In this document: positions 34,554 through 54,374 of the stretch, piece after piece
Layout of the letters: each line of letters opens with the position of its first letter
Position numbering within the stretch: position 1 is the first letter of the stretch
From: Candidatus Heimdallarchaeum aukensis
Lineage (GTDB): Archaea > Asgardarchaeota > Heimdallarchaeia > Heimdallarchaeales > Heimdallarchaeaceae
Direction: 5' to 3'
Length of the DNA: 64,000 nt
NCBI GenBank assembly: GCA_021513695.1
Contig: CP084166.1
Span: 992,001 to 1,056,000 of the forward strand
Made by a program: the position numbers and the translations under genes
Notes under the pieces: model-generated
Told to the model about the DNA's origin: nothing
Database searches by the model: none
The model's input: the letters and a program-made list of their open reading frames with translations, nothing else

Positions 34554-34990
34554 AGAGCATTTGAAATCTAACAATTCTAGTACTCCTTTCTAATTTTTTT
34601 ATCTCACATAGATAATAGTTAGTTGTAATGTTTGAAAACAGGTTGTGAATAAAGTAATAATAGCTCCTCTGTCATTGATTATGCAATAAGTATAATCTTC
34701 CATATTCTTGACATTACATCTTATCTCTCAAATATGATTATCTATATGAACTCATTTCTTTAAACAAACTATCTTCATTTGCTTATTTTTGTAAATAGTA
34801 CATAATTTCCTATTATTAAGACAACAAAAATCTCCTAAAAAGTTCGGTAATACATGATTGAAAGAAGTCGATTGATGGAGAAATCCTGGTGATTAACTTC
34901 TTGAGAGATACTAATTAATTATTTTCGAGCAAATGCTCAAGAAAATGATTATTCTTCTTGGAACTCTTTAAACTACAAGACAGAGTAATT

Positions 34991-36031
34991 TTATGCTCTT
35001 TCACATTTATTTTTTTCATTATTTTCTACAATACATAGTTCTAGAAGTATATCATACGTTTTTATCATCTCTCTCATAGTTTTTAACATTATTGGGTAAA
35101 GACGCATAATACTATGATTCTTTGTATATTTATAATCTGAATGATAATTAGGATAACGCGAAGCACCAACATGTTTTTCCAAATTCATGCTTAAAATAAC
35201 TATATATGCAAACAGTAGTATAAGATAAAGATAACTTTCTATTTGTACTAACCAATCTTCTTTCTGAATTTGTGTGATAAATTCTTCTCTCAACATTCTT
35301 CGCTCATCAGTTTGCAATTTGATATTATATTCTTGTTCGATTGTTTGAATGACATAGTCTGTTATGCTAATGAACTCTTCTTTCACAATTTTATCAAAAT
35401 TTTCTTTTCTTATGGATTTTATTCCTTTCCTAAATAATGAAAACAGCTTGTTGTATTTAATTAATATTTCCTTTAATGTAGTGTGTTCAAGATACAGAGT
35501 TTCTTCTGATTTCCTTTTTTGCTCATAATCACTCAAATATTTATCAATTGCTTCTATAATGCTTAAAAATCCTTCTCTTTGGTTATCATTAGAATAATCA
35601 GCTAAAGATTCATAGAGATCTTTTAGTTTTTCGAAGAAGAATTTAGTAAAAGTATGTCCAACTTTTATAAGCCGTTCAGTTTGACACAGTCCAGTAAGTA
35701 GAAGTAGTGATTTTCCTAATTTCTCAACAGATTGTTGGAGGAAGAAAATAGACTGTGCATATAGTTTCTTGTGATATAGAATTTTTGAAGCTCTTAAATC
35801 CTCTTCAGCAGTATCTAACAGTCCTAAAGCTGATATTAAATCTCTCTTTTCTGGTGGGATCTCATACTGTGATCCATATTTTAATTGCCATATTAATTGC
35901 CTTTTGATATCTTCTATATCTGTTTCTTGTAATGCAATTTTGTCATTATTATCATTCATTAAATAGCACTGATGGTTAATATTTAAATAATTAATGGCAA
36001 CTATTATCATAATGCAATAAAAATCGAGCAT
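34991..36031 (-). CDS. HEPN-domain protein
   Basis: ALGLLDTAEEDLRASKILYHKKLYAQSIFFLQQSVEKLGKSLLL matches the first helices of the classic HEPN domain. The C-terminal GASRYPNYH supplies the RYP / R-x4-H motif. The probable start is the internal MNDNNDK. Confidence 0.55.
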   Translation of the reverse strand: MLDFYCIMIIVAINYLNINHQCYLMNDNNDKIALQETDIEDIKRQLIWQLKYGSQYEIPPEKRDLISALGLLDTAEEDLRASKILYHKKLYAQSIFFLQQSVEKLGKSLLLLTGLCQTERLIKVGHTFTKFFFEKLKDLYESLADYSNDNQREGFLSIIEAIDKYLSDYEQKRKSEETLYLEHTTLKEILIKYNKLFSLFRKGIKSIRKENFDKIVKEEFISITDYVIQTIEQEYNIKLQTDERRMLREEFITQIQKEDWLVQIESYLYLILLFAYIVILSMNLEKHVGASRYPNYHSDYKYTKNHSIMRLYPIMLKTMREMIKTYDILLELCIVENNEKNKCERA

Positions 36032-36183
36032 CTGCTCTTTAAAATGAGAAACTATTTTATATTAAAAACTCTTAATTGGTTTTAAAACATGATAATTAAA
36101 GAAAAAAGAATAATTAAATCCTTCTATTTAACTATAAGGAGGAGTAAATAAACATAAAAAAATTGTGAGTAGAAGGGAAATAT

Positions 36184-37419
36184 ATGTCATTTAATTTTGA
36201 AGTTAAAAATACAATTGCATCCTTAAGGCAATCAAGGTTGAAGCTTGGCAATGTAGAAATAGAAACACCAAATTATATAATGACACATATTGAAACTAGA
36301 CGACTTACTACAGGGTATAATCTTGTTGGGAGTCGTGAGCCTAACCCAAAACTGAATGAATTAATTAGTGATCATATACCTGATAGATTAACTGCACAAA
36401 AAATATTTGAAAACTCCGATGAAATAGAAAAATTATGTAACAAGCTAGATAACTTGACTAAATCTGATCGGATGAATTTTGTTCAATTTCGTTTGAAGGC
36501 TGGAAATGAAATTAGCAAATATGAATTATGTCAAATTGTTAGGTTGCAGTCTGATATGAACAAATTTTCCATTATAACAATACCTGATCCTACTTGTTCA
36601 TATAATAACTCTTGGATTGATTCTATGGAAGCAGCTCTCTATGAGGCTAAGGTTTCACAAGAAGTTGGAACATCGGAACTATTTATGCCTACTGTTTCGC
36701 TTGCTCAGCCTTTATTGGATGTGGAAAAGAAAATTTCGTGGTTAATAGATAAGCAAGTTCCATCCATTGGATTAAGAGCACACGGGCCACATTTTCCAGC
36801 TACTTTGCACAAATCAACAAATCTGATTACACAATCAGATAATCCGATTTGGATTCATCTGTTTGACTTATCCAAAAAATATAAGAATGTGTCCCAACTG
36901 CATTTGGCACCTTTGACAAGTGTTGATACTATTTCCTTGAAAAAAAAACATGGGTATAGCAGCAGCAAGAAAAATATTATGGATGGTTTATTGCCAACAC
37001 CAGAGAATATATCTTTAGAACCAACTGCTAGGGAAATAGAAGAACAAAAGGTCAGAGAGATAAAGCGTAGTCAACGGTTTTTGTTTGAGCAATTAGCTTT
37101 AGGTTACATTTCTATAAATGAGCGGACTAAATGGATTGGTCATGAACTTTCTTGTACTTGTCCCATTTGTAAAAAGACAAAAGATATAGATACCTTTAGG
37201 ATTTATCTCTCAACACATGATAAAAACTCACTTCTACAAGTGCATGAATATACTGGTTTTAACCAGGAAATGTTGGCAATTAGAAAAAATATTAGGGATA
37301 ATGATATCTCAGAGTATTTTAGACAAAAAATATTAGTAAAACGACATAGACGCAAACTATCTAAAAGATATCCTGAGCTTGAAAGGTTTATTAATCCGCC
37401 TTTAGATAGTTACTTCTGA
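36184..37419 (+). CDS. tRNA-guanine-transglycosylase superfamily protein, stand-alone (DpdA-like / ArcTGT catalytic-domain-like)
   Basis: The N-terminus FEVKNTIASLRQSRLKLGNVEIETPNYIM parallels ArcTGT FEIKARDGAGRIGKL...IETPAIMPV. The zinc motif SCTCPICKK...LLQVHEY parallels CSCPVCSK...LLALHNL (CxCxxC...H). There are no PUA or C-terminal tRNA-binding domains (411 aa). Confidence 0.6.
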   Translation: MSFNFEVKNTIASLRQSRLKLGNVEIETPNYIMTHIETRRLTTGYNLVGSREPNPKLNELISDHIPDRLTAQKIFENSDEIEKLCNKLDNLTKSDRMNFVQFRLKAGNEISKYELCQIVRLQSDMNKFSIITIPDPTCSYNNSWIDSMEAALYEAKVSQEVGTSELFMPTVSLAQPLLDVEKKISWLIDKQVPSIGLRAHGPHFPATLHKSTNLITQSDNPIWIHLFDLSKKYKNVSQLHLAPLTSVDTISLKKKHGYSSSKKNIMDGLLPTPENISLEPTAREIEEQKVREIKRSQRFLFEQLALGYISINERTKWIGHELSCTCPICKKTKDIDTFRIYLSTHDKNSLLQVHEYTGFNQEMLAIRKNIRDNDISEYFRQKILVKRHRRKLSKRYPELERFINPPLDSYF

Positions 37420-37447
37420 GATATTTATCCAAGAAAAGGTGATATAA

Positions 37448-38059: not shown

Positions 38060-38066
38060 TACATCA

Positions 38067-38570
38067 ATGACTAGTCATGAAGTAGAGTATAAAATTGAGA
38101 AACTAAATATATCTCATACTCTATTAGACTTTGATTGTGGTGATGAAAACGTTAATGAGTATTTTAATCAGAGAAGCTATGAAGAAGTTGAATTAGGTAA
38201 TGCTCAAATTTATGTGTTTATACTTGTGAATACAAATGACCTCATAGGTTTCTATACGCTTTCAATGAAATCTGTTCGTTTTAACTATGAAGGAAGAGAA
38301 TATGATCAACCTGTGTGTTTGCTTGGGCAAATTGGAGTAAATAAAATTTTCCAAAATAAAGGTTGGGGAACAATATTAATTAAAGATGCAAAGAAGAGAT
38401 GTAAAAAAATCTCAGAAGATATTGGAAGCATTGGTTTATTATTGGAAACATATAAAGAAGAATTAGTGAACGGGTTTTTCAAGAAACTTGGTTTCGAATA
38501 TGTTGAACATCACAAAATGAAAAACCGAGGTACAAGATATAGATTGTTTTGCAAACATGAACATGAATAG
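38067..38570 (+). CDS. GNAT-family acetyltransferase toxin (TacT/AtaT/KacT-like)
   Basis: LDFDCGDENVNEYFNQRS...IYVFIL...LIGFYTLSMKSV...PVCLLGQIGVNKIFQNKGWGTILI...FFKKLGFE matches the F-x-CG-x-x-x-L-x-x-x-L ... GFY-x-L ... G-x-G architecture of tRNA-acetylating TA toxins. Confidence 0.7.
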   Translation: MTSHEVEYKIEKLNISHTLLDFDCGDENVNEYFNQRSYEEVELGNAQIYVFILVNTNDLIGFYTLSMKSVRFNYEGREYDQPVCLLGQIGVNKIFQNKGWGTILIKDAKKRCKKISEDIGSIGLLLETYKEELVNGFFKKLGFEYVEHHKMKNRGTRYRLFCKHEHE

Positions 38571-38624
38571 AAAAAGGAGAAATGGATATAAAACAGCTTA
38601 CTCTATTTAAAGCTTAAAGCTATT

Positions 38625-38666
38625 TTTGAATATTATTCTTTACTTTTTTCTAGCTCTAATCCTCTC
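38625..38666. repeat. 42-nt IS-leader-like repeat, copy A
   Basis: tttgaatattattctttacttttttctagctctaatcctctc is identical at 39 of 42 positions to 41084-41125, in the same orientation. Confidence 0.85.
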
Positions 38667-38901: not shown

Positions 38902-39354
38902 TTATTGTATAGAATCTATGAACCTCTTTAAATCCTCTTCTGGTAAATCAGTATATTTCTTATATCTCTTGAATTTTTTACTGAAGAATTTTATATCAAC
39001 ATAAATTTGTATTTTCTCTTTGCCTTCAATTTGTTTTCTGTCTGTTACAGGAAAAGTTGCCCAATATAACTTGTATTCTTTTGAATGCTTAAGTTCATAT
39101 TGTTGTTGTTTTGGTCTTATCTTTCCTTGATACTCAACACTATCAATTATCATTTTTATGTCCAACAGAAACATGAGTGTAGAAGCAGTTCCAGCATTAA
39201 TTATGTAAAGTCCCCATTCTTTTGCTTGTGGGTTGAATATTGGTCCAGATAAGTTTAGCGAAGCTCTTTTTGGTCTAAAGAAGGATAGGTATACTGTTAC
39301 AACTGACAGAAAAATAGATATTGTAGAGAATATTAATGAGACTACTTCTGTCAT
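38902..39354 (-). CDS. Small N-terminally membrane-anchored protein, unknown function
   Basis: The N-terminus VVSLIFSTISIFLSVVTVYLSFF is a TM helix. It is co-oriented with, and downstream of, the 447-aa gene. Confidence 0.4.
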   Translation of the reverse strand: MTEVVSLIFSTISIFLSVVTVYLSFFRPKRASLNLSGPIFNPQAKEWGLYIINAGTASTLMFLLDIKMIIDSVEYQGKIRPKQQQYELKHSKEYKLYWATFPVTDRKQIEGKEKIQIYVDIKFFSKKFKRYKKYTDLPEEDLKRFIDSIQ

Positions 39355-39589: not shown

Positions 39590-40933
39590 TTATTCCTCAT
39601 GAAGTAAAGGTGTTTCTAAAAGGACATTTGTTAAGTCGATATTGTTAGGGTTTATTTTTTTTGGATAAACAAAAGAGAAGTGGCAGACGTAAGATTTGTT
39701 GTTTCTTATTATTTTGATCCAAACATTTTCTGGTTTTTCCATTATTATTCTTAACATCCATGATGTATTTTCTTCTGATACTCTAAGCAAGGCATAAAGA
39801 GTTCTTTTTTTTAATTCTAGTGTCTTATACTTTTCGAATTTTTCTTTTAACTGTTCTGCGTTCCCCCAAAAAAGGTTGGGAAAAACTTTTTCATCTTTAT
39901 CAAATACTATTGTTATCTCTTTTATTTTATTGTACTCTGAAATATCTTTCAAGATTTCCTTCTTTTCATCAATAGGGATTCTTTGTTGAATACCTCTAGA
40001 TTTTCTTAAAATTTGATCGAGGAGAAACCATATTGAATTGTCCATATATTTAATAAACGAATTAATTTCCATTTTAAATGCAACTTCTGTTTTTTGTATT
40101 TCTACATTACCTTTTTTATTTATCCAACCGTTTATTTTAAAATAAGAAAAACGAGGATCGACATATTCGAAAGATTGTTTGGGTGGAAAGGTTTTTCCAT
40201 TTTTTCTTGCCAAAGTTATTGCATCTTCTATCCATAATTTGAAATTGGTATTTGCTGACCTTGCGGGAATTTTGTCAATAATAACCCATATCTCATCGTT
40301 ATTGAAATCCAGAACTTTTTTACCACTATGTGTAACAGTATTACGTAAGTATAGAAACACACTGAATGCAAGTGATGGATTGATATATTTATCTGAATAG
40401 GGCTCGTAATGTCTAATTAGTTCATCAAAAATACGTTCATACCTATATCGTTTTAATTCGGGAAGATTATTTAAATACGCTTCTGTGAATCTTGAAGTTA
40501 GTTCCAAAAGTTCCAGACCAGCTGAAACATATGTTTCAAAGAGACATATAAAAAGGAACTTTATAGTTGGTATTTTAGTCCAATCAAATCGTATTTGATA
40601 ATACTCTATTTGGTCTCTTACTAATTGGAAGTACGCAAGTCTATATTTAATGCTGTTTAATGTTTCAATATACCTTCCTTTTTTCACTAATTCATTAATA
40701 TGAAAAACTAGTAAACTGTAGTCTCTTGATTCGTTATGTGCTTCCAGATAGTATGAAAACATACTCAAAACGCCAAGACTTGTATCAAGAACATGCCGAG
40801 AAATACTAATTTCTTTTTTTTCTTTTTTTTCTTTTAACGAATTAAAAAACTCATATTCGTTAAGCAAAATTTTTAACAAAAGTTCATGAGATTCTTTACT
40901 TTCTATTTCTTGCTTATCCTTATTTTGATTCAT
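39590..40933 (-). CDS. Hypothetical protein with HEPN-type RNxxxH motif (Abi-like candidate)
   Basis: 447 aa and alpha-helical. FLYLRNTVTHSGKK fits the R-N-x-x-x-H catalytic motif of Abi2/AbiD-F-type HEPN RNases. No other recognisable motif was found. Confidence 0.4.
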   Translation of the reverse strand: MNQNKDKQEIESKESHELLLKILLNEYEFFNSLKEKKEKKEISISRHVLDTSLGVLSMFSYYLEAHNESRDYSLLVFHINELVKKGRYIETLNSIKYRLAYFQLVRDQIEYYQIRFDWTKIPTIKFLFICLFETYVSAGLELLELTSRFTEAYLNNLPELKRYRYERIFDELIRHYEPYSDKYINPSLAFSVFLYLRNTVTHSGKKVLDFNNDEIWVIIDKIPARSANTNFKLWIEDAITLARKNGKTFPPKQSFEYVDPRFSYFKINGWINKKGNVEIQKTEVAFKMEINSFIKYMDNSIWFLLDQILRKSRGIQQRIPIDEKKEILKDISEYNKIKEITIVFDKDEKVFPNLFWGNAEQLKEKFEKYKTLELKKRTLYALLRVSEENTSWMLRIIMEKPENVWIKIIRNNKSYVCHFSFVYPKKINPNNIDLTNVLLETPLLHEE

Positions 40934-41083: not shown

Positions 41084-41280
41084 TTTGAATATTATCCTTT
41101 ACTTTTTTCCAGCTCTAACCCTCTCCCCTCTCCCATCTTTACAATCCTTCTTTCCCCTGAAATTATTTTTTTTGTTTCCTTTTTCTATATTCTCTTTTCT
41201 TTCTAACCAACCTTATACTCTTTTTCTTTACCTTTGTTCTTGTTATTGCTTTTGTTACTGTTTTTAGTCCTAGTTCTGTA
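41084..41280. repeat. IS-leader-like repeat copy B plus about 150 nt pyrimidine-rich tract (solo left-end remnant, minus orientation)
   Basis: 41084-41125 matches copy A at 39/42 positions. Its reverse complement gagagggttagagctggaaaaaagtaaagg aligns with the IS promoter block gagggttttaaatagggaaaaaaagtaag. The adjacent CT-rich tract mirrors the purine-rich leaders of both tnpB elements. ORF 41085..41267 is low-complexity and not credible. Confidence 0.6.
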
Positions 41281-41472
41281 CTATTAGTTCAGTCTCTTTT
41301 TTAGGATAATCTGTGGATAGTAATTCTTCAAGAAATTAGAGGAAAAATATGAAATCAATAATAAACTTTCTCTAAATTGTCTTAAGGTCTTCTTCTAGTT
41401 ATAACCTCCTTACAAGAAGATGCTTTACTTTGCAACAAAATGAAAAATAAACTAAAGAAACTATTCATAGGG

Positions 41473-42642: not shown

Positions 42643-43512
42643 GTGCTTACTAATTATCTTCCCTATGAAGTTTTTAAAAGAATATTAACAAAGACAATCT
42701 TTCAAAATGCTAAAATAAGTTTATTAGAAAAAGTTGCTAAATATCCTTCAAGATATACAGGTTTATTTAGGCCTACCAAACCTAAATTAAAATTAATCCA
42801 GAACATTACTCAATCAAATGAAATTCTATTTGGCGATGCTTTTGAGATCATAATTAATGAATATTTGAATAGATTAGGTTTCTCTCCAATTAAAAAAAAT
42901 TATTCCTATAATGGAAATGACTTAATGTTTGATCAGATTGTAGGAAAAGAAAATACTATTATTTACATAGAACAAAAAATAAGAGATGATCATGATTCAA
43001 CAAAAAAAAGAGGTCAAATAGAAAATTTTGAGAAAAAGGGTGAATTATTATTGAAACTATATCCTGATTTCAAAATTACTGGTATAATGTATTTTATAGA
43101 CCCAAATTTAAAGAAAAATCGAAGATATTATATGCAAGAATTACAAAGAATAAGTACTCAATTTAATTTTGAAACTCATCTCTTTTATGGAAAAGAGTTT
43201 TTTGAATGGATAGGAAAAGATGAAATCTGGTTAGAAATAACAAGCTATTTATCAAAGTGGAAAGAAGAGATACCTGATTTTCCCACAATTAATTTTGATG
43301 AAAATCCCGAAGAATCTTTTGAGGAAATCAAGCATCTACAACCTAATTTACTGATAAAGCTTCTAAGAAATGATGCAATATGTAAGGAGATTTTTCCCGA
43401 ATTGTTCCCGGAAAAAACGACATTAAATCTACTTCTGGAATACTATATTCATGAAAGAGAAAAAAATAAGACTAATACAATGGTTATTGAACATTTAAAA
43501 AAAGTGTTGTGA
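42643..43512 (+). CDS. Putative type II restriction endonuclease partner (PD-(D/E)xK-like)
   Basis: It starts 5 nt after the methyltransferase stop. FDQIVGKENTIIYIEQKIRD gives a D-x13-E-x-K arrangement. The assignment rests mainly on context. Confidence 0.5.
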   Translation: MLTNYLPYEVFKRILTKTIFQNAKISLLEKVAKYPSRYTGLFRPTKPKLKLIQNITQSNEILFGDAFEIIINEYLNRLGFSPIKKNYSYNGNDLMFDQIVGKENTIIYIEQKIRDDHDSTKKRGQIENFEKKGELLLKLYPDFKITGIMYFIDPNLKKNRRYYMQELQRISTQFNFETHLFYGKEFFEWIGKDEIWLEITSYLSKWKEEIPDFPTINFDENPEESFEEIKHLQPNLLIKLLRNDAICKEIFPELFPEKTTLNLLLEYYIHEREKNKTNTMVIEHLKKVL

Positions 43513-47249: not shown

Positions 47250-47317
47250 TCACACTCTTGATGAATTCTTTACAAATTTATGTAATAAAAATAAAAACTT
47301 TTCTGGAATATCTATGT

Positions 47318-50300
47318 TTAATTTTCACTAAGATATTTTATTATTTTAGGAAGTAGGAAAACATTTTTTCTTAATGTTGAAAAACTTAATGCTTCTCCTA
47401 GAAGTGTGTGAACTTGTTTAGGTATTTTTCCAAACATTGGATGACTAACTACATATCCATAGGTAAATGATTTGAAATTCCCACTTTCTATTATTACACG
47501 CATTGGCTCTTCCAACAAGCTCATATCACCAAAGTAAATGCTTGATAATGGTGATGATAATGCTCTTAAACGTTCAATAGTTGCTTTTTCAATATCTTCA
47601 CTCAAAAAAATATCACTATCTTCTATTATATCAAGAGTTATTAATAAATATGAATCACCAGCAAATATAATTGGTGGACTTAAAAGTTTACTAAATTTTT
47701 TTGCTAATGAAAATGCATTATTTGTTGAGTTGATAAAATGATATAAGCTTGGATATTTTCTACTTTTTTCATCTTTTTTTACATTTCTTCCATAATAAGT
47801 TCTGACCATCTTTTCTAAGTAGTTTAATCCTTTATTTATTGTGTATAAGTTTCGAGGTTTTTCCAGATAATTAAGTATTTCTTGTTTATCTGTTTTGTCA
47901 TAAGCTTTTACTGTTACACGAAAACCTTTTGCTATTTGTTGATTAGTGACTTTATAGAATAGATAAGAAGGTATCGTCATATCATTCCATCTACCTGCTT
48001 CATTAAATGTAAGTATAAATTCAGGAGAGGGATATAATCTGAAATGGTTTAATGCTGTTTTTATAGATGGAAAATAATTTTTCAAAAAATCATCTAAATA
48101 GATATTATCAACTGAAAATGCTCTTTTACTAACTCTTCCAAATAGACTGAATTTTCTTTTAGTTCTTTCCGAAATCTTGCTTCTGCTAAAAACTGGTAGG
48201 ACATGTTCATTATTGTTGATTAGTATATCTCTAATAAAACTTCTTAACTGATGAAATTTGATATTTTGATCTTTTAGAGTGGCATTTTTGTTCAAAGCAG
48301 AAATCATAGACACTAATCTTGGCTTCAAATCTGTTTCTTCTCCTCTCATCCTTTTAATTACTTGCCTAAAATATTCTAGATTGATCATAGAATCGAAATA
48401 AGTTGTTGAGCCATAGTCTGTTTTTAAGGGGAAAGGAGGAAGGATAATTAAAATTTCATGCCATGAATATGTAGTTCCAAATGCTAATGAAGAGGTTCCT
48501 ACTATATTTTTTTTAGGTGTTTCTTCTATTAATAATGTGTCACGAGAATCGTGAGTAATAGAAACTGCATCATAATTGTTTAAATGGAGGTATTCTACTA
48601 ATGAATCTACAAACTGTTTATTGTTAACATAAAAAATTACTTTACCCTCTTGTAAATATTTTTCAAATGATTTTTTTCTATTGTCAATTCGTGATTTTTT
48701 TACAAGCTTGTCTAATATTTCAAAAATTTTTTTAAAATTTATTTCCTCTTCATATTTACCCTCACAAATAAATGATGCTGCACAATAATCAATATTGAAA
48801 TTTAAGAGATATCTCAGAAAAATACCTTTAATCGGAGTATTAATTATTTTAAATTCCTCTGGTTCTTGAATGTCTTCATTAAAATTAGTTATTTGAAATT
48901 GTGTCATCCATTTTTTTGAATTTGGATCAACTAATGTGTTCAACATGGAAATTACTAATTTCATACTTGTGATAGATGCATCAGTAATTACAAAGCGAGG
49001 AACATTTATGTTATTATTTACCATTAATCGATTCCTTGCTTCTATTAGTAAATCAATAAAATTTTTTGCAACTGTTGGTCCAGAATTAGTTAATTCATCA
49101 AAGATGAACATATATGTCTTTGTGAATAGTAATTTCCAATTGTATGATTGTTTTAGAAAATAATCTAAAGCTTGGGAAGATACTAATATAACTTTTTGTC
49201 CTTGTTTCTCTAGTGCTTTTTTCAATCGATTTCCTGTTTCACTGAAAATTGTTTCATACCCCTTAAGTGTTATTGGATCTCTTATTAACTCTTTTTCTCT
49301 TTTACCAATAATTAATTCTAAATGGACATTTTTTTCTATATCATTTTTGATTAATCTTTGAATTTTATCTTTAGTTTGTATTAAGGTTGTAATTCTTGGA
49401 CAGAAATACAGAATAGTAAAGTTTTTTTTAGTTTTTGCAAGCTTTTTAATATAATTTGCAATCACATAATTTTTTCCAACACCTTGAGATGAACCATTTA
49501 TTATTATATTATAACAATCATTGGTTAATAATTTTAGGAAGTTCTTCTCATGTTCTTTTCTTACATTTTCTATTTCGTTTCTAGTAACACTCTGTCTTTT
49601 TACGATAGAAGGTTGAATCTTCTCTTTAGTTTCAGGATAAGCTTCAATAAATTCTGTTTTTTCATCCTTCAAAATTATTTTTAACTCCTCTCCTCTAGTT
49701 CCTTCAAAAAAATACATTCTTTTATTGTTTTTTTCTTTTATTCTCATCGATATTTTTCCACTCATAAATAATTCAAAAATTCGTCTTCTTTCAAAATCTT
49801 CCAATATATATTCTTTCTTTTTACCAAATTCTGTTTCCACTATAGTACTAGGAATCAAGTTACATAGAAATCGTAATATTTTCCTTAAATCGGTTTCAGA
49901 TTTAATATGAAAAGAAGATATAGCTCCAGGTAAAACTATTTGAACTTCAATCTCACTGTTATAATTTTGAGTTTCGTTATAATATAATTGTGCATAGGAG
50001 AATACTTTTAAGTATTTCTGGAGAGCTGTTGCAATTCTGTAAAAATCTCTTGCAGGAATCTTTTTGTTCTTATGTAAATTTAGTTTTCTTAGTTTTTCCT
50101 TTGAAAAATCTTCGACAATTAATTGTTCAATATAATCTTGAAGTAATCGCTCTTTCGTCATATTTACAAAAAATATATATGATTTAATATCGCCAATACA
50201 TAAGAACTCGATTTGGTTCATTTCATAATTAAAGGCTTCCTCTTGATTGTTAGATGTTTTCTTTCTAATGATTATAAAATCAGGTTTTTTTTCCCTAAAT

Positions 50301-50779
50301 GTTGGTTCTATAAATATTTCTAATTCTGTATCTGGTTTTTTCCATTCAAGATTTGCATTTAGTAATACCGATATTGAACATTGAAATCCTGTTTTTATCA
50401 TTCTTAAGGCTGTATATCCCACTTTTTGTTCTTCCAAAATATCTGTGATTTCTCTTTCATCAATCTTTAAGTCTGTTCTAAACATTTGCCTTTTTTGAAA
50501 ATAATTTTTAAATATTAAGTACGAATCTGTGATGCTTGATTTTCTGATAAATAAATCGATTGCTTGTTCTATCTGTATTCCAATTACATTTTCAAGATAT
50601 GAATTCAACTCTATTCTATTTTCAATATCTAAAATAGGTGGTTCAATTCTTATGCCTACAAAAGGTTTAATGTTGTAGCATTTTGATTTTGACGCAATTC
50701 CAAGAAAGAATCCAAATTCAAGTGCTTCTCCATATATTAATGGTGCTATTCTATTAATTTTCTTTTCGTAATTTACCAT
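47318..50779 (-). CDS. Large (1153 aa) nuclease-helicase-like protein
   Basis: N-terminal PD-(D/E)xK-like pattern EIFIEP...KPDFIIIRKK...EFLCIGDIKSY. P-loop IINGSSQGVGKNYV (about nt 49469-49498). Walker B/DExx-like MFIFDELT, then VITDAS, GTSSLAFGTTY and FRQVIKRMRG (motif VI-like). The motifs are degenerate. Confidence 0.5.
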   Translation of the reverse strand: MVNYEKKINRIAPLIYGEALEFGFFLGIASKSKCYNIKPFVGIRIEPPILDIENRIELNSYLENVIGIQIEQAIDLFIRKSSITDSYLIFKNYFQKRQMFRTDLKIDEREITDILEEQKVGYTALRMIKTGFQCSISVLLNANLEWKKPDTELEIFIEPTFREKKPDFIIIRKKTSNNQEEAFNYEMNQIEFLCIGDIKSYIFFVNMTKERLLQDYIEQLIVEDFSKEKLRKLNLHKNKKIPARDFYRIATALQKYLKVFSYAQLYYNETQNYNSEIEVQIVLPGAISSFHIKSETDLRKILRFLCNLIPSTIVETEFGKKKEYILEDFERRRIFELFMSGKISMRIKEKNNKRMYFFEGTRGEELKIILKDEKTEFIEAYPETKEKIQPSIVKRQSVTRNEIENVRKEHEKNFLKLLTNDCYNIIINGSSQGVGKNYVIANYIKKLAKTKKNFTILYFCPRITTLIQTKDKIQRLIKNDIEKNVHLELIIGKREKELIRDPITLKGYETIFSETGNRLKKALEKQGQKVILVSSQALDYFLKQSYNWKLLFTKTYMFIFDELTNSGPTVAKNFIDLLIEARNRLMVNNNINVPRFVITDASITSMKLVISMLNTLVDPNSKKWMTQFQITNFNEDIQEPEEFKIINTPIKGIFLRYLLNFNIDYCAASFICEGKYEEEINFKKIFEILDKLVKKSRIDNRKKSFEKYLQEGKVIFYVNNKQFVDSLVEYLHLNNYDAVSITHDSRDTLLIEETPKKNIVGTSSLAFGTTYSWHEILIILPPFPLKTDYGSTTYFDSMINLEYFRQVIKRMRGEETDLKPRLVSMISALNKNATLKDQNIKFHQLRSFIRDILINNNEHVLPVFSRSKISERTKRKFSLFGRVSKRAFSVDNIYLDDFLKNYFPSIKTALNHFRLYPSPEFILTFNEAGRWNDMTIPSYLFYKVTNQQIAKGFRVTVKAYDKTDKQEILNYLEKPRNLYTINKGLNYLEKMVRTYYGRNVKKDEKSRKYPSLYHFINSTNNAFSLAKKFSKLLSPPIIFAGDSYLLITLDIIEDSDIFLSEDIEKATIERLRALSSPLSSIYFGDMSLLEEPMRVIIESGNFKSFTYGYVVSHPMFGKIPKQVHTLLGEALSFSTLRKNVFLLPKIIKYLSEN

Positions 50780-50780
50780 T

Positions 50781-53702
50781 TTATATCAACTTCTCCTGAA
50801 TTTTTATTCTGTTTATCCCTTTGATGAAAATACTTGGATCTAGCAACTTTTTGGAATCAGGATATGGTAGATGAAATAACCTTTTTAAACTTTCAATACT
50901 AATTCCGCCTTTTTCATCTCCGTAAATGGTTAATATTCTTGAGAATTCTTTCAAATAAGAAATAGTTTCTTCAGACGATCTTTCATATGGTATTACAGTA
51001 AAAATAAGAGACGGTTGTAAATCTTTTTTAATTTCACCCTCAAGCTTTTCTTCTCTTCTCGAACCAAAAATCAACATTCCAACTATTTTTCTCTTATCTC
51101 TTCCATTATATTTCAAAGGTTCATTAATATATATAATTAATTGTCTATTTGATTTTGACTTTGGCAGTAATTTTCCAATTTCTCTTGAAGGAGTAAAAAT
51201 AGCTTTTTCATTAAAAACAAACAATGGAATTTTTAATTGTTTATTCTTTTCAAATATCCAGTCAATAATGGTATCTTCTTTACTAAGATCACTATCTTGT
51301 ATTTTTCTATTTACAGATTCAGATATAATGTCATAAGTGCTCTCCGTTCTTGAACTATGTTTAGCTCTTATTAAAATTAGAATATCTTCTTTTGCTAATT
51401 CTGATACTATTAGTGAGGCTAATTCAAAATTTATATCGCATCCTATGTTTCCAAATGAATCTTCTATAAAGTTTTCCTCCATTACATTAATTTCTCGTTC
51501 ATCAGTTAGGTGAGCATAAGCTGCGATATTTCTTATGTATCTTTGTTCTTCTTTAATTATTTCGACCCATTTTTCTGATGAAAGAGAAAGTAATAATATA
51601 TCTTTTGTTTTTATTAATTTATCAAGAGCTTTATCATGTAGAGTATATCCCGCTGTAGAAGTATTTTTTAAGGAGTGTGAAGTAAAATACCATTCATCCA
51701 TAAATAATCTTCCAAAAGCTTTATTTATATTATGATAATTTGATAAAAACTTGTACAAATAGATACCAGGTAAAGCAATTTTTTTCTCTTTGGAAGCTGT
51801 TTGATAAGTAAATAATTCTACTTTACCTATGTTATCAAAAGTATAAAATGAAAAAGGTCCATCGAAGTATTTTAAGATTTGATTTTTTGACCATACTACA
51901 TTCCCGTTTTTTCTAATACCATCTTTTGTCATCATTTGAACATTAATACGTCTTCTTGACCTATTGATTGTACTTTTATTTTGCCAGATTTTCTTTATTA
52001 TTTGCCTAATCTCTTTTTCTTTATATTCTTTTGATAAAGAATCAAAAGAAAAGCCTTGAGAATATTCGAAATATTTTGTTTCCCATGAGTGTACTCCTTT
52101 TAATAACATATAATAAAATTCATGAAAAAGACTTCTTTTTACTTTCTTCGATAAATATGGGATAAACCAAATGTTATCTCCTCCTTTTACAAATCTAAAT
52201 TCATGATTAAGCCTTGTTAAAGATTGTTTAATATCAGGGTCATTAATTAGGTATAGTATTGCACTATCTATAACTGCCTTTAAAGATGCAAAAAATCTAT
52301 AATTGTCGTTGTTTAGTCTTTCTCTCAAATCTGTATTAATTCTTTTGTGATATATTTCAATTTCTTCTGGAAAAAATTCAGTATTTGCTATAAGATAAGT
52401 GATAAATTCTTGTAATCCATATTCTTTATCTCCATACCAGATAGATGTTTTATTTTTTTCATCAATTCCTTCATTCTTTTTTAAATAAATATTTTCATGA
52501 ATAAAAACTATCAATCTTTTTGGATTTATTTGTTTGGGAGAGATGTTTATCTTTTGAATTCTTTCTAATTTCTCTTTTTTTGCGCATAAGTAATGATCAA
52601 ATTCTGGAAATTCACAATTTTCAACAATTTCCTTTAGTTTATCAAATAATTCTTCAAAATCTTTATAACTTATTTCGTTAAAACCTAAAAGTATTGAAAA
52701 AGCGAATAATTTATCTTTAATATCTTCAACCATTTCTAAGAATTCTTGGTCATTTGTATCCATTTGTTCCATTATCCATTCTTGAAGGTTAATGAGTAAA
52801 GGCAAGATTGTTTTTTCTTTATTCCAGCCTTCTCCATATATTCTGAAACAATAAAGGTTTTTATCATAATCTTCATGAAGATTAAGAAATTTTGGGCAGC
52901 TTCCTACAGAGATTAATCCAGGAAAAGAAGGAAATGACATACCTTTGAAACTATGATTTATTATTTTCTCAAACAGAGTTTTCTCTTCAGCTGATAATTT
53001 TTTAATAAATTTATCATTCTTAAGTAAGACGGTACATTCTTTCTTAAAATCTAAATATCTGTCGTATGCAGCATTACGAACTTCTTCATTTCTAATGTAT
53101 TTTATATAATATTTTACTAATTTTTTCTGAACTGGATTATTAATAATGTTTGAAAATTGCTCTGTAGCTTTAATGGAAACTTCTTCTGCTTTTAAAGCTG
53201 TTTTAAAAAATGAAATTGGAATCTCATTTTCATGAATTTTCTCATTTGCGTTTCTAAATCTTGATTCATTTTCTTGAATTTCAATATAAGAAAAAGTAGA
53301 ACCAACTTCTTCTGATTTCCATTCATCTCGCTTTGCTTTATCCCATAATGTTGCTGGATTTTCATACTTTTTTTCTTTTTTCATTAACTCTTCTTTAATT
53401 GTGATTATAACTTTGTCGCTTATCTCTAATAATGTAGTATTAGGACTTTGGACAATTCTAGATTTTAGCTTTTTCACCAGTAACCAATTTTGTAACGAGG
53501 GATCAGATATTTCATTAATTTCTTCTAATGTATTTTGATACGCTTTGTGAACTATTCTACAAAAATCATCAAAGGGATATGTTATAGTACAAAGCATATC
53601 AAAGAATTTTTTATCCTGAATATATTCTGAAATTAATTTTGAGAAGAATATAGACCAAAATTCTTTATCTATTCCTTCTGTTAGTTTTACTAATCTAGCC
53701 AC
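50781..53702 (-). CDS. Large (973 aa) hypothetical protein, first gene of the four-gene operon
   Basis: Uninterrupted ORF with a GTG start preceded by gaggaga. Its stop is separated by 1 nt from the next gene's ATG. No recognisable catalytic motif was found. Confidence 0.5.
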   Translation of the reverse strand: MARLVKLTEGIDKEFWSIFFSKLISEYIQDKKFFDMLCTITYPFDDFCRIVHKAYQNTLEEINEISDPSLQNWLLVKKLKSRIVQSPNTTLLEISDKVIITIKEELMKKEKKYENPATLWDKAKRDEWKSEEVGSTFSYIEIQENESRFRNANEKIHENEIPISFFKTALKAEEVSIKATEQFSNIINNPVQKKLVKYYIKYIRNEEVRNAAYDRYLDFKKECTVLLKNDKFIKKLSAEEKTLFEKIINHSFKGMSFPSFPGLISVGSCPKFLNLHEDYDKNLYCFRIYGEGWNKEKTILPLLINLQEWIMEQMDTNDQEFLEMVEDIKDKLFAFSILLGFNEISYKDFEELFDKLKEIVENCEFPEFDHYLCAKKEKLERIQKINISPKQINPKRLIVFIHENIYLKKNEGIDEKNKTSIWYGDKEYGLQEFITYLIANTEFFPEEIEIYHKRINTDLRERLNNDNYRFFASLKAVIDSAILYLINDPDIKQSLTRLNHEFRFVKGGDNIWFIPYLSKKVKRSLFHEFYYMLLKGVHSWETKYFEYSQGFSFDSLSKEYKEKEIRQIIKKIWQNKSTINRSRRRINVQMMTKDGIRKNGNVVWSKNQILKYFDGPFSFYTFDNIGKVELFTYQTASKEKKIALPGIYLYKFLSNYHNINKAFGRLFMDEWYFTSHSLKNTSTAGYTLHDKALDKLIKTKDILLLSLSSEKWVEIIKEEQRYIRNIAAYAHLTDEREINVMEENFIEDSFGNIGCDINFELASLIVSELAKEDILILIRAKHSSRTESTYDIISESVNRKIQDSDLSKEDTIIDWIFEKNKQLKIPLFVFNEKAIFTPSREIGKLLPKSKSNRQLIIYINEPLKYNGRDKRKIVGMLIFGSRREEKLEGEIKKDLQPSLIFTVIPYERSSEETISYLKEFSRILTIYGDEKGGISIESLKRLFHLPYPDSKKLLDPSIFIKGINRIKIQEKLI

Positions 53703-54374
53703 AAACTTCTCTCCTCATAGGTAATTGTACTAAAACTTATCTTGAATGTTAAACAATTTCTTTTTTTATTTATATAATTTTTGATAATAAATGTTTTCAT
53801 CTTTTATTCATTTATTATCTGTATTCAATAAATTATTCATGAGTTTAGTTTTATCTTTTTAATATTAATCAAAAATATGCTATATGTTTAACTTTGACGA
53901 CTTAGAGTAATCTCAAATTGTTGTTATAGTAGTTAGATTTATTTTTTATTTATATTCACCCACTAAAGTTTTATTTAACTCGCTTCAACTCTTTAAATTA
54001 AATATGTCTAGTTGATAGATACATTTTCATCCTCCTATACGCTTGAAAATACTAGATGATTCTCTAGTTTAAATTATATGGTTAATGTAAGAAGATATAC
54101 AAGTTTAAATGCCATAAAACGGAGACGTTGGCCATGAAACAAAAATAAATAGAATACTGTTGTTTTCTAAGTGCAAAGAAAAATATATAGAAGTATAAAA
54201 TACAAAAATTAGTGTAAGAGAAAAATAAGAAACTCAACAAGAATTTACAAAAAGTAGTTTAGCATAAAAAATAAGAAAGTATTTTATTATGGTGCAATTG
54301 CTAAGACATGACAAAATAATATGGTTGTTTGGTGATTTAATTAGAAAAATTTAATAACCAAAGTAATTAAAAAA

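What the first reader, a model, noticed from the sequence alone, without database searches (positions are those of the whole stretch)
34560..53760. A 19-kb AT-richer accessory island packed with defence-type modules and flanked by IS-damaged DNA
Seen, in order along the island:
- a HEPN protein;
- a TGT/DpdA-like gene;
- a Panacea-like antitoxin with a GNAT toxin;
- a repeat-bracketed HEPN-motif module;
- an IS left-end remnant;
- a CcrM-family methyltransferase with a putative endonuclease;
- an 0.8-kb ORF-free gap;
- the four-gene operon.

Long non-coding flanks lie at 34554-34990 and 53703-54374. Spot counts of single 60-nt lines gave 12/60 and 19/60 G+C inside the island (46381, 51001), against 23/60 and 26/60 in core genes (6781, 56461). 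The upstream flank (30.9-34.6 kb) contains an IS and two broken genes.

Inference: this is a horizontally acquired or fast-evolving defence island. The unannotated genes in it (38902..39354, 39590..40933, 44323..45342, 50781..53702) are prime candidates for new immunity functions.
Basis: partly seen in the sequence, partly recalled or inferred. Interest (0 to 1): 0.55.

Follow-up and report, generated by a model that had tools for sequence, protein, structure and literature searches.

The report
Strain-variable archaeal defence island with Argonaute-like module
This stretch of an Asgard archaeon genome is a real "defence island" whose gene cargo differs between closely related strains, and one of its unannotated gene pairs looks like a previously unrecognised Argonaute-like protein working with a nuclease-helicase.

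Summary
The window comes from Candidatus Heimdallarchaeum aukensis, an Asgard archaeon. The island is real.

- **Composition:** it is AT-richer than its surroundings, but only slightly (27.3% vs 30.6% GC).
- **Strain variation:** two sister-strain contigs share the right flank (HAD hydrolase, CAAX protease) at 93-95% nucleotide identity but carry different cargo at the same site. One carries Hachiman plus VapBC. The other carries unrelated genes.
- **Boundaries:** the variable block runs from about 31.1 kb, where an IS cuts a cysteine-synthase stub, to 54.3 kb. It is not 34.56-53.76 kb.
- **Labels confirmed:** HEPN; a GNAT toxin of the TacT/KacT/AtaT family; a CcrM-like methylase paired with a HinfI/HpyAIV-family nuclease (a predicted GANTC restriction-modification system); the 42-nt repeat; and the 0.8-kb gap.
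- **Labels not supported:** Panacea, DpdA, and the "IS left-end remnant".
- **The "four-gene operon" is two separable pairs:**
  - a Menshen-like NsnB ATPase plus an unknown 339-aa partner, with no NsnA present;
  - a very rare 973-aa protein plus a 1153-aa nuclease-motif/SF2 helicase.

A confident structure model of the 973-aa protein (pLDDT 81) matches Argonaute/PIWI and NurA folds, although no sequence similarity is detectable. The pair therefore resembles DdmDE, ApsAB and PIWI-RE systems. Its function is inferred, not shown.

The parts
30907..31096 (+). N-terminal stub of a cysteine synthase (PLP enzyme) gene, cut by the IS; this is the left anchor of the hotspot
   Evidence: The ELIGNTPLV motif is present, and all 14 PDB hits are N-termini of cysteine synthase or CBS. 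Sister strain L035 has the matching cysteine-synthase C-terminus (PALP 6e-11) directly left of the hotspot.
31096..32990 (-). TnpB-only IS (tnpB at 31345-32802), GC 39-40%
   Evidence: PF07282, 35 bits against a cut-off of 26. The right end is defined by the junction with a second copy, 85% identical, inserted in the CAAX gene of sister strain L026. The left end is approximate.
33010..34553 (+). Broken FG-GAP repeat / multi-TM gene (fragments 33184-33567 and 33705-34553); lies inside the rearranged region
   Evidence: Weak FG-GAP hits and a frameshift near 33560. No counterpart is found in L035 or L026.
34685..34948 (.). Conserved non-coding scaffold segment A
   Evidence: 85.5% identical to L035 535-797.
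34925..34948 (+). Left copy of a 24-nt imperfect direct repeat (TCGAGCAAATGCTCAAGAAAATGA) containing the palindrome GAGCAnnTGCTC
   Evidence: The core TCGAGCANNTGCTC occurs only at the two sites flanking the HEPN cassette, with 0.03 matches expected by chance. L035 has a single copy, the empty site.
34991..36031 (-). HEPN-domain protein on a ~1.1-kb single-gene cassette; the real start is probably Met25, near 35959
   Evidence: PF05168 at 1.5e-7. The cassette is absent from L035, where segments A and B abut. The start position is an inference, because the long ORF overlaps the right repeat.
36024..36047 (+). Right copy of the 24-nt repeat (TCGAGCATCTGCTCTTTAAAATGA)
36026..36143 (.). Conserved non-coding segment B (promoter/leader-like), lying upstream of a different first cargo gene in each of the three strains
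   Evidence: 88-94% identical to L035 776-893 and 98% identical to L026 622-665.
36184..37419 (+). Divergent TGT-superfamily-like protein; function unknown
   Evidence: Only the C-terminal Zn subdomain matches, below the cut-offs. A CxCxxC...H string (SCTCPIC ... H) is read from the sequence. There are no PDB, PADLOC or phage hits.
37448..38059 (+). Putative non-canonical antitoxin (203 aa)
   Evidence: PADLOC PDC-M19A 1.3e-14, with a weak match to the DarG C-terminal region. It has no DUF4065 and no RHH domain. It ends 7 nt upstream of the GNAT gene.
38067..38570 (+). GNAT toxin of the TacT/KacT/AtaT family
38625..38666 (+). 42-nt direct repeat D1, copy 1
38902..39354 (-). 150-aa protein with an N-terminal TM helix; function unknown
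   Evidence: It has no family hits. L026 3117-3614 encodes a homologue at 48% identity within otherwise different cargo.
39590..40933 (-). 447-aa protein of unknown function carrying one RNxxxH string
   Evidence: It has no hits in Pfam, NCBIfam, PADLOC or viral contigs.
41084..41125 (+). 42-nt direct repeat D1, copy 2
41345..41449 (.). Conserved non-coding segment C, containing a small inverted repeat
   Evidence: 85% identical to L026 4597-4671 and 76-86% identical to L035 6813-6899, between unrelated genes.
41501..42637 (+). Beta-class N6-adenine DNA methyltransferase (CcrM/HinfI-like) with a RAMA domain
   Evidence: PF01555 3e-70 and RAMA 1e-14. PADLOC MTase_II 1e-171. NF050803 scores 558 bits, below the equivalog cut-off of 830.
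42643..43512 (+). HpyAIV/HinfI-family Type II restriction endonuclease
   Evidence: NF045832, 246 bits against a cut-off of 160. PADLOC REase_II 7e-76. PF09520.
43513..44322 (.). 810-nt gap between convergent genes, with no detectable feature
   Evidence: It has no ORF of 45 aa or more, no Rfam hit and no similarity to any held locus.
44323..45342 (-). 339-aa partner of the ATPase, in the NsnC position; predicted effector, fold unresolved
   Evidence: It overlaps the ATPase gene by 4 nt. Only one homologue is known, P0006 at 48% identity, and that is also preceded by the ATPase homologue. The AF2 model is poor, pLDDT 49.
45339..47249 (-). NsnB-like ABC ATPase with a DUF3696 tail (636 aa)
   Evidence: PADLOC NsnB 1.7e-58, HEC-03B 1.9e-52 and PDC-M55A 9e-51. 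AAA_21, AAA_15 and DUF3696 score above their cut-offs.
47318..50779 (-). 1153-aa protein with an N-terminal PD-(D/E)xK-like motif followed by an SF2 helicase
   Evidence: ResIII. E158, P166-D167, G196-D197-x-K199, Walker A 429-437, DEL 561-563, DASxTS and RQVxKRxRG are kept in relatives at 27-61% identity.
50781..53702 (-). 973-aa protein with a predicted Argonaute/PIWI- and NurA-like fold
53703..54306 (.). Island-specific non-coding DNA; the right boundary lies at about 54307
   Evidence: Homology to L026 starts at 54307, and to L035 at 54463, which is inside the HAD gene.
54375..55127 (+). HAD-family hydrolase; this is the right anchor of the hotspot
   Evidence: Pfam HAD_2. It is 93-95% identical in the sister strains.

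Best explanation
Window 31.1-54.3 kb is a strain-variable defence island. It sits at a fixed chromosomal hotspot of Candidatus Heimdallarchaeum aukensis, between a cysteine-synthase gene (here reduced to a stub by a TnpB IS) and a HAD-hydrolase gene.

The island is a mosaic of small, separately exchangeable cassettes. Short conserved non-coding segments (A, B and C) separate the cassettes, and some cassettes are bracketed by direct repeats. Cargo is probably swapped by recombination at these shared segments, not by one integrase-borne element.

**Modules and their likely action** (all functions are inferred from homology)
1. A solo HEPN protein, predicted to be an RNase.
2. A divergent TGT-like protein of unknown role.
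3. A GNAT toxin that would acetylate charged tRNA and arrest translation, held in check by an unusual 203-aa antitoxin.
4. Two unknown genes between 42-nt repeats.
5. A HinfI/HpyAIV-type Type II restriction-modification pair. It would methylate GANTC and cut unmethylated GANTC.
6. A Menshen-like NsnB ABC ATPase with a 339-aa partner in the effector position.
7. A rare two-gene module in which a 973-aa Argonaute/PIWI-like protein senses foreign nucleic acid, possibly with a guide, and recruits or activates the adjacent PD-(D/E)xK-motif SF2 helicase to unwind and degrade it. This would parallel DdmDE and ApsAB.
For: **Source**
- The source genome is named by exact protein matches.

**Hotspot**
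- L035 reads cysK 3' end, segment A, segment B, Hachiman, segment C, VapBC, then HAD/CAAX/ODP. The flanks are 95% identical.
- L026 shares the flank from 54307 at 93% identity and carries other cargo, plus segments B and C and a homologue of the 150-aa ORF.
- Distant relatives keep synteny only up to 30686.

**Composition**
- The island is 27.3% GC against 30.6% for the flanks, p = 2e-6.

**Cassette signatures**
- A 24-nt repeat flanks the HEPN gene, and L035 has the empty site.
- A 42-nt repeat flanks the two unknown genes at 38.9-40.9 kb.

**Module identities**
- Supported.

**Split of the 'operon'**
- The 973/1153 pair occurs without the ATPase pair in L022. Truncated copies are in L023 and L024, and distant copies in L036-L038.
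- The ATPase/339 pair recurs in L025.

**Defence context of the 973/1153 pair**
- In L022 it lies between Mokosh-like genes and an MwoI R-M system.
- In L037 and L038 a phage-type integrase lies about 1.4 kb away.

**Fold and motifs**
- Fold evidence.
- The partner's nuclease and helicase motifs are invariant at 27% identity.
Against: - No activity of any module is shown.
- No integrase, tRNA or att site is present, so the mechanism of cargo exchange is inferred.
- The left anchor rests on two non-overlapping cysteine-synthase fragments, an N-terminal stub in the window and a C-terminal end in L035. Their being one and the same gene is therefore parsimonious, not proven.
- GANTC is not depleted (O/E 0.90), which gives no sign of R-M activity either way.
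- No Piwi or pPIWI_RE Pfam match appears in 13 family members at E<=1, and no PDB sequence match appears.
- Neither a DEDX tetrad nor a conserved YKQK pocket could be assigned.
- The nuclease domain is supported by a motif only, with no Pfam family.
- Menshen's defining NsnA is absent.
Confidence: 0.8

Rival explanations
1. The 973-aa protein is a NurA-type RNase H-fold nuclease with extra domains. It works with the helicase as a guide-independent DNA end-resection or degradation machine, a HerA-NurA or TdpAB analogue. It is not an Argonaute-like sensor.
For: - Foldseek also lists TM1739, NurA and TdpAB.
- No MID 5'-end pocket motif could be assigned.
Against: - NurA-type matches cover only about 190-210 residues. 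Argonaute, PIWI, Med13 and HrAgo1 matches cover 280-390 residues, and RsAgo aligns over 747 columns with prob 0.99. This fits a MID-PIWI lobe.
- The partner is an SF2/ResIII helicase, not a HerA-type hexameric ATPase.
- Known PIWI-like proteins pair with SF2 helicase plus REase-fold nuclease in PIWI-RE, DdmDE and ApsAB (PMC10991935, PMC11096173).
Confidence: 0.25
2. The four genes at 44323-53702 act together as one system, an expanded Menshen variant. In this reading the Argonaute-like protein and the helicase replace the ParB-DUF262 sensor NsnA.
For: - All four genes are co-oriented. The gaps between them are 1 nt, 68 nt and a 4-nt overlap.
- The ATPase matches NsnB at 1.7e-58 and has the DUF3696 tail.
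- The 339-aa gene sits where NsnC would sit (PMC12065111).
Against: - The two pairs occur apart. In L022 the 973/1153 pair is followed by oppositely oriented Mokosh-like genes, with no ATPase pair.
- In L037 and L038 the pair is followed by small ORFs and an integrase.
- L025 keeps only the ATPase/339 pair on what is visible of the contig.
- No DUF262 domain is present anywhere in the island.
Confidence: 0.12
3. The block is not an exchange hotspot. It is the decayed remnant of one integrated mobile element or provirus, and its mobility genes were lost through IS-mediated deletion.
For: - The IS and the broken genes lie at the left edge.
- GC is lower than in the flanks.
- Relatives of the 973/1153 pair lie next to an integrase in L037 and L038.
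Against: - Three strains have three different cargos between the same flanks. They share only short non-coding segments.
- There is no integrase, tRNA, att-like terminal repeat or structural/viral gene.
- No relatives were found on viral contigs.
- The HEPN gene is an individual insertion with its own empty site.
Confidence: 0.1

Closest known systems
DdmDE (Vibrio cholerae) and ApsAB (E. coli ST38) plasmid-defence systems
   Same: Both are two-gene modules that pair an Argonaute-like protein, undetectable by ordinary sequence search, with one large protein combining an SF2 helicase and a PD-(D/E)xK nuclease. Both lie in genomic islands (PMC11096173; bioRxiv 10.1101/2024.05.10.593530). Here the 973-aa protein has an Argonaute/PIWI-like predicted fold, and its partner has helicase and nuclease motifs.
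   Different: - There is no sequence similarity to any solved chain, including DdmD and DdmE, even with profiles.
- The nuclease motif lies N-terminal to the helicase, whereas in ApsA it is C-terminal.
- The Ago-like gene comes first.
- The host is archaeal.
- The Ago-like protein is larger, at 973 aa.
- ApsB's MID YKQK motif was not recognisable.
PIWI-RE systems (PIWI-RE + DinG helicase + REase-fold nuclease; Burroughs et al. 2013 as summarised in PMC10991935)
   Different: - No match to any pPIWI_RE Pfam family appears in 13 members.
- The helicase and nuclease are fused in one protein.
- The helicase matches ResIII/DEAD rather than DinG-specific families.
Menshen (NsnABC)
   Same: The ATPase has the NsnB architecture: an ABC ATPase with a GxG signature (GFGVSQ) in place of SGG, an altered Walker B (EQ where NsnB has EN and canonical ABC ATPases have DE) and a DUF3696 tail. 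A downstream overlapping gene of unknown fold occupies the NsnC position (PMC12065111).
   Different: - No ParB-DUF262 NsnA is present.
- The ATPase is about 250-300 aa longer than the NsnB model.
- The partner matches no NsnC model, and its structure could not be modelled.
HinfI / HpyAIV Type II restriction-modification systems (GANTC)
   Same: A beta-class N6-adenine methylase of the CcrM/HinfI type lies next to an HpyAIV/HinfI-family endonuclease.
   Different: - This system is archaeal.
- The specificity has not been measured.
- The methylase scores below the CcrM equivalog cut-off, so it is not CcrM itself.
Defence-island hotspots with swappable cargo in bacteria, and the local CRISPR-Cas operon swaps reported for the two Heimdallarchaeum genomes (PMC8813620)
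   Same: Conserved flanks hold unrelated defence cargo in close relatives.
   Different: - This locus is not described in that paper.
- It lacks an integrase or tRNA.
- Short conserved inter-cassette segments are shared among the variants.

Membership tests
Defence island / variable hotspot | Several recognised defence-type systems clustered together | tested here: met
   The island holds a Type II R-M pair, a GNAT toxin pair, a HEPN protein and an NsnB-like ATPase.
Defence island / variable hotspot | Different cargo between conserved flanks in close relatives | tested here: met
   L035 and L026 were compared with the window. The flanks are 93-95% identical, while the cargo is Hachiman plus VapBC in L035 and unrelated genes in L026.
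Defence island / variable hotspot | Composition deviates from the surrounding genome | tested here: met
   The island is 27.3% GC against 30.6% for the flanks, p = 2e-6. The effect is small and lies mostly in the right half.
Integrative mobile element | Integrase, tRNA target or terminal att repeats | tested here: not met
   There is no tRNA, no integrase domain and no repeat spanning the whole block.
HinfI/HpyAIV-type Type II R-M | Endonuclease belongs to the HpyAIV/HinfI family | tested here: met
   NF045832 scores 246 bits against a cut-off of 160, and PF09520 is recorded.
HinfI/HpyAIV-type Type II R-M | Adjacent N6-adenine methyltransferase of the CcrM/HinfI type | tested here: met
   PF01555 3e-70 and PADLOC MTase_II 1e-171. 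The genes are 5 nt apart.
HinfI/HpyAIV-type Type II R-M | Methylation and cleavage at GANTC | not testable with these tools
   Only an indirect test was possible. GANTC O/E is 0.90, which is uninformative.
GNAT-toxin TA systems (TacAT/KacAT/AtaRT) | Toxin is a TacT/AtaT-type GNAT | tested here: met
   The top 15 PDB hits (E <= 5e-6) are all members of this toxin family, with E from 9e-17 to 5e-6.
GNAT-toxin TA systems (TacAT/KacAT/AtaRT) | RHH/DUF1778 antitoxin upstream | tested here: not met
   The upstream 203-aa protein has no RHH or DUF1778 domain. Its best match is PADLOC PDC-M19A.
Panacea (PanA) antitoxins | Match to the Pfam DUF4065 model (the criterion used in PMC8832971) | tested here: not met
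   No DUF4065 hit appears at E<=1.
TGT / DpdA | Match to PF01702 or TgtA above the family cut-off | tested here: not met
   PF01702 scores 16.6 bits against 26.3, and TgtA scores 21.6 against 350. Only the C-terminal 60 residues match.
TGT / DpdA | Zn-binding CxCxxC...H signature | tested here: met
   SCTCPIC followed by His about 25 residues later was read from the translation. This is a motif-level observation only.
TGT / DpdA | Other dpd genes or similarity to phage DpdA | tested here: not met
   There is no PADLOC hit and no tblastn hit in 50,697 phage records.
Menshen (NsnABC) | NsnB: ABC ATPase with DUF3696 tail | tested here: met
   PADLOC NsnB 1.7e-58, and PF12476 scores 25.8 bits against 22.
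Menshen (NsnABC) | NsnA: ParB-DUF262 plus ParBDB protein upstream | tested here: not met
   No DUF262 domain occurs in any island protein.
Menshen (NsnABC) | NsnC: inactive-PIN N-domain plus effector C-domain downstream | tested here: inconclusive
   The position and the 4-nt overlap fit, and the predicted secondary structure is alpha/beta. However, the model has pLDDT 49 and no NsnC model matches.
DdmDE / ApsAB-like Argonaute-helicase-nuclease systems | Argonaute-like fold in one partner | tested here: met
DdmDE / ApsAB-like Argonaute-helicase-nuclease systems | Partner combines an SF2 helicase with a PD-(D/E)xK nuclease | tested here: met
   ResIII or DEAD matches appear in 4 of 6 members. 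Walker A, DEL, DASxTS and RQVxKRxRG are invariant, as is E...PD...GDxK. The nuclease is supported by a motif only, and it lies N-terminal.
DdmDE / ApsAB-like Argonaute-helicase-nuclease systems | Sequence homology to DdmD/DdmE or ApsA/ApsB | tested here: not met
   Profile searches of the PDB sequences found nothing at E<=1 for the helicase family or at E<=10 for the 973-aa family. There are no PADLOC hits.
DdmDE / ApsAB-like Argonaute-helicase-nuclease systems | MID 5'-end binding motif (Y-x3-K...Q...K) | tested here: inconclusive
   Y531-x3-K535 and Q589 exist in close homologues, but K535 is not kept in distant ones. No superposition was possible.
DdmDE / ApsAB-like Argonaute-helicase-nuclease systems | Guide-dependent elimination of plasmids or viruses | not testable with these tools
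   This requires an experiment.
PIWI-RE | Match to the pPIWI_RE Pfam families | tested here: not met
   None of the 13 family members matches at E<=1.
HerA-NurA | HerA-type hexameric ATPase partner | tested here: not met
IS200/IS605-type TnpB element | TnpB with a TNB domain, and evidence of mobility | tested here: met
   PF07282 scores 35 bits against 26. An 85%-identical end is inserted in a different gene of a sister strain.
HEPN | Profile match plus an Rx4-6H motif | tested here: met
   The 346-aa protein matches PF05168 above the cut-off and carries RYPNYH. The 447-aa protein has only the RNTVTH string, with no profile match, so its HEPN status is inconclusive.

The most novel reading that the evidence does not exclude
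The 973-aa / 1153-aa gene pair is a new, deep-branching archaeal Argonaute-like defence system. In this reading a catalytically silent MID-PIWI-type protein, unrecognisable by sequence, uses a nucleic-acid guide to find invading DNA and hands it to a fused PD-(D/E)xK nuclease-SF2 helicase. It would be an Asgard-lineage counterpart of DdmDE, ApsAB and PIWI-RE. Separately, the island's short conserved inter-cassette segments and repeat-flanked single-gene cassettes may mark a site-directed mechanism of cassette exchange in Asgard archaea.
Probability: 0.35. Interest if true: 0.75.

Novelty: new variant of a known kind. Interest (0 to 1): 0.6.

Why it matters
Defence islands are well known in bacteria. 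Strain-resolved examples in Asgard archaea, the closest prokaryotic relatives of eukaryotes, are few. This locus shows three different cargos at one site, with shared junction sequences, and so offers a concrete place to study how these archaea exchange immunity genes.

The more valuable part is the Argonaute/PIWI-like protein coupled to a nuclease-helicase. Only 17 representatives exist among 1.84 billion proteins, and the family is invisible to sequence annotation. If it is guide-dependent, two things follow. The helicase-nuclease-coupled Argonaute-like systems (DdmDE, ApsAB, PIWI-RE) would extend to archaea. It would also add a new branch to the PIWI/Argonaute superfamily in the lineage relevant to the origin of eukaryotic RNA silencing.

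The rest of the island (R-M system, GNAT toxin pair, HEPN, IS) is ordinary.

Tried and rejected
- **Distant Heimdallarchaeia MAGs (about 57% aa identity):** they could not define the island edges. Even the right-flank genes are not nearby in them.
- **Metagenome scan with the core GTPase:** it gave no close relative with useful flank. L034 (77% identity) has unrelated upstream DNA.
- **'IS left-end remnant' at about 41.1 kb:** rejected. Only CT-rich low-complexity resemblance was found, and there is no blastn hit to the IS.
- **'Panacea':** rejected.
- **'DpdA':** rejected as a membership claim.
- **GANTC avoidance:** it was tested as a sign of R-M activity. There is no signal.
- **Rfam scan of 30-55 kb:** nothing above chance.
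- **The 0.8-kb gap:** no ORF, no RNA family and no similarity to anything held.
- **Viral-contig scans** for the TGT-like, 447-aa and 973-aa proteins: no relatives.
- **REase against plasmids:** no hit.
- **AF2 model of the 339-aa protein:** pLDDT 49, so no fold search was run on it.
- **afdb50 fold library:** unavailable.
- **BFVD:** only weak RNase H domain hits.
- **PDB sequence and profile searches** for the TGT-like protein, the 339-aa protein, the helicase and the 973-aa family: empty.
- **Catalytic DEDX tetrad or MID pocket:** neither could be assigned from conservation alone.

Full report
**Source and overall picture**

Exact matches name the source as Candidatus Heimdallarchaeum aukensis, which has a closed 3.08-Mb genome. 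The 973-aa protein is K9W45_04270 and the 339-aa protein is K9W45_04255. The same sequence is also assembled from run SRR15988954.

The genome paper (PMC8813620) describes transposase families, CRISPR-Cas operon swaps, HeimM/HeimV elements and aloposons, but not this locus. A survey of Asgard defence systems does not mention it either.

**Checking the observation**

Composition:
- The window is about 30% GC.
- The stretch 34554-54306 is 27.3% GC, against 30.6% on both sides.
- A Mann-Whitney test on 1-kb windows gives p = 2e-6. Gene GC is 28.3% vs 31.5%, p = 2.5e-4. GC3 gives p = 0.03.
- The effect is only about 3 points and is carried by the right half (41.5-53.7 kb). The TGT-like, GNAT and 150-aa genes look like core genes.

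Gene labels:
- **HEPN:** confirmed (PF05168 above the cut-off).
- **GNAT:** its best PDB matches are all tRNA-acetylating TA toxins, namely TacT, KacT and AtaT.
- **Upstream 203-aa partner of the GNAT:** it matches PADLOC candidate PDC-M19A (1e-14). It does not match DUF4065, the model that defines Panacea (PMC8832971), even at E<=1.
- **'TGT/DpdA-like' protein:** it shows only a sub-threshold match of its last 60 residues, plus a CxCxxC...H string. PADLOC, the PDB and 50,697 phage genomes give nothing.
- **Methyltransferase:** a beta-class N6-adenine enzyme with a RAMA domain.
- **Its neighbour:** passes the NCBIfam cut-off for HpyAIV-family enzymes and carries a HinfI Pfam hit. This is a predicted GANTC restriction-modification pair.
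- **GANTC frequency:** the site is not depleted in the window (O/E 0.90), which is uninformative.
- **42-nt repeat around 38.9-40.9 kb:** real.
- **'IS left-end remnant':** not supported.
- **810-nt gap:** has no ORF, RNA family or similarity.

**Is it an accessory island?**

Distant Heimdallarchaeia MAGs, with 57% identity in the flanking GTPase, conserve the Ras/1535-aa/Rag-GTPase cluster (22.6-30.7 kb). They have none of the genes to the right within 10 kb, so they only show that synteny ends at 30686.

Close relatives were found through the 90%-identity cluster of the HAD hydrolase.

Contig L026:
- It is 93% identical to the window from 54307 onwards.
- Left of that point it carries different genes.
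- Its CAAX gene is interrupted by an 85%-identical copy of the window's IS end. This fixes the IS right end at about 31096.

Contig L035:
- It is 95% identical across HAD, CAAX and ODP.
- Upstream it carries VapBC and a Hachiman system (HamA plus a 1043-aa helicase).
- At its far left it carries the C-terminus of a cysteine synthase.

The window holds only the N-terminal stub of a cysteine synthase, which ends at the IS. The hotspot therefore lies between cysK and the HAD gene. In this genome the rearranged block is about 31.1-54.3 kb. The cysK link rests on two non-overlapping fragments and is an inference.

A more distant relative, L027 (HAD 72% identical), has housekeeping genes upstream of HAD and no island. 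No tRNA or integrase is present.

**Cassette structure**

The three variants share three short non-coding segments:
- Segment A, 34685-34948.
- Segment B, 36026-36143, which lies upstream of a different first gene in each strain.
- Segment C, 41345-41449.

These are shared at 76-98% identity, while the genes between them are unrelated.

In L035, segments A and B abut. In the window they are separated by the 1.1-kb HEPN gene. That gene is flanked by a 24-nt imperfect direct repeat containing the palindrome GAGCAnnTGCTC. The repeat core occurs only at these two sites, with 0.03 matches expected by chance, and L035 has a single copy.

Together with the 42-nt repeat, this suggests cassette-wise gain and loss. 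The mechanism is not known.

**The 'four-gene operon'**

The gene spacing is 1 nt, then 68 nt, then a 4-nt overlap. The genes form two modules that occur apart.

The ATPase pair:
- The ATPase carries AAA_21, AAA_15 and DUF3696, and matches PADLOC NsnB at 1.7e-58.
- The ATPase and the 339-aa gene recur together in L025.
- Menshen is defined by NsnA (ParB-DUF262), NsnB and NsnC (PMC12065111). NsnA is absent here.
- The 339-aa protein has one known homologue. It could not be modelled (pLDDT 49), so its NsnC-like nature is open.

The 973-aa / 1153-aa pair:
- The two genes are adjacent in L022, L023 and L024 (44-61% identity).
- The same holds for a distant relative, with 926-aa and about 1050-aa genes in L036-L038. 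There the partner is 27% identical over its full length.
- In L022 the pair sits between Mokosh-like genes and an MwoI-type R-M system.
- In L037 and L038 a phage-type integrase follows.
- An exhaustive HMMER profile search found only 17 representatives among 1.84 billion proteins.
- No member matches any Pfam family consistently.

**What the pair looks like**

The helicase partner keeps the following motifs across all relatives:
- E...PD...GD(I/V)K, a restriction-endonuclease-type motif at residues 154-199;
- Walker A (GSxQGxGKN);
- DELTNS;
- DASITS;
- GTSSLAFGT;
- RQVxKRxRG.

It matches ResIII and DEAD.

A 13-sequence alignment gave a confident AlphaFold2 model of the 973-aa protein, with pLDDT 81 and pTM 0.81.

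Foldseek against the PDB ranks the following highest:
- Rhodobacter sphaeroides Argonaute (E 1.6e-4, probability 0.99, 747 aligned columns);
- then SPARTA/SPARSA short Argonautes, TM1739, TdpAB, a PIWI protein and NurA.

TM-scores are low (0.20-0.25), as expected for a multi-domain protein. Profile-to-PDB sequence searches find nothing.

So the protein contains an RNase H-fold domain of the PIWI/NurA type. It probably has a MID-PIWI-like lobe, but this is a fold-level inference. I could not assign a catalytic tetrad or a 5'-end pocket from conservation.

**Mechanism and comparison**

An Argonaute-like protein paired with a helicase-nuclease is the logic of three known systems:
- DdmDE (bioRxiv 10.1101/2024.05.10.593530);
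- ApsAB (PMC11096173);
- PIWI-RE loci, in three-gene form (PMC10991935).

I therefore favour a sensor-effector model. The 973-aa protein recognises foreign nucleic acid, possibly with a guide, and the nuclease-helicase destroys it.

The differences from the known systems are:
- no sequence homology;
- the nuclease motif lies N-terminal rather than C-terminal;
- the gene order is reversed;
- the hosts are archaeal.

The main rival is a guide-independent NurA-plus-helicase degradation machine.

The other modules would work as their families do. These are GANTC restriction-modification, translation arrest by tRNA acetylation, HEPN RNase activity and ATPase-controlled effector release. All of these functions are inferred from homology.

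**Verdict**

The finding is essentially right as an interpretation: this is a strain-variable defence island. It needs corrected borders and several corrected labels.

The island as such is a new member of a known kind. The Argonaute-like/nuclease-helicase pair is a new variant of a known kind and is the part worth following up.

Noticed in passing
window 22594-30686: A cluster of a Ras-like GTPase, a 1535-aa protein and two Gtr1/RagA-type GTPases keeps the same order in about 15 Heimdallarchaeia MAGs. This looks like a conserved Rag-GTPase-type operon in Asgard archaea.
   Followed up: partly
L026 11016-11400 (matches window 31096-31467): A sister strain carries an 85%-identical copy of the window's TnpB IS end inserted into its CAAX-protease gene, at the position equivalent to window ~55396. 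The IS family is therefore active in the population.
   Followed up: partly
window 34925-34948 and 36024-36047; L035 776-797: The HEPN gene is a 1.1-kb single-gene insertion flanked by a 24-nt imperfect direct repeat containing the palindrome GAGCAnnTGCTC. The sister strain L035 has one copy of the site and no HEPN gene.
   Followed up: yes
window 36026-36143 and 41345-41449; L026 622-703 and 4597-4709; L035 776-893 and 6813-6907: Short non-coding segments, each with a small inverted repeat, are conserved at 76-98% identity among three island variants whose neighbouring genes are unrelated. They could be shared promoters or recombination anchors.
   Followed up: partly
L035 7780-8445: In this sister strain, homology with the window starts 88 nt inside the HAD gene. 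The gene there is called as only 164 aa, so cargo exchange has eroded the flanking gene.
   Followed up: no
L022 1-22934: The metagenomic contig (40% GC) that carries a 47%-identical copy of the 973-aa gene is itself a dense defence neighbourhood. It holds an MwoI-type R-M system, two MkoA-like helicases, a PLD nuclease, a weak ShosT-like hit and a radical-SAM protein.
   Followed up: partly
L037 7693-8364 and L038 8015-8686: A phage-type integrase (Phage_integr_3) lies about 1.4 kb downstream of distant relatives of the 973/1153 pair. In those hosts the pair probably rides on an integrative element.
   Followed up: no
window 38902-39354; L026 3117-3614: The 150-aa protein with an N-terminal TM helix has a 48%-identical homologue within the otherwise different cargo of L026. 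This small gene appears to move independently of its neighbours.
   Followed up: no
L026 1-597 and 5186-7564: The alternative cargo in L026 includes a protein with a weak nucleoside 2-deoxyribosyltransferase-like match and a 792-aa protein with a weak GHKL-ATPase match. Both domain types are common in defence systems.
   Followed up: no
window 45339-47249: The NsnB-like ATPase is about 250-300 residues longer than the PADLOC NsnB model. The extra segment lies between the Walker A motif and the signature motif, and its nature is unknown.
   Followed up: no
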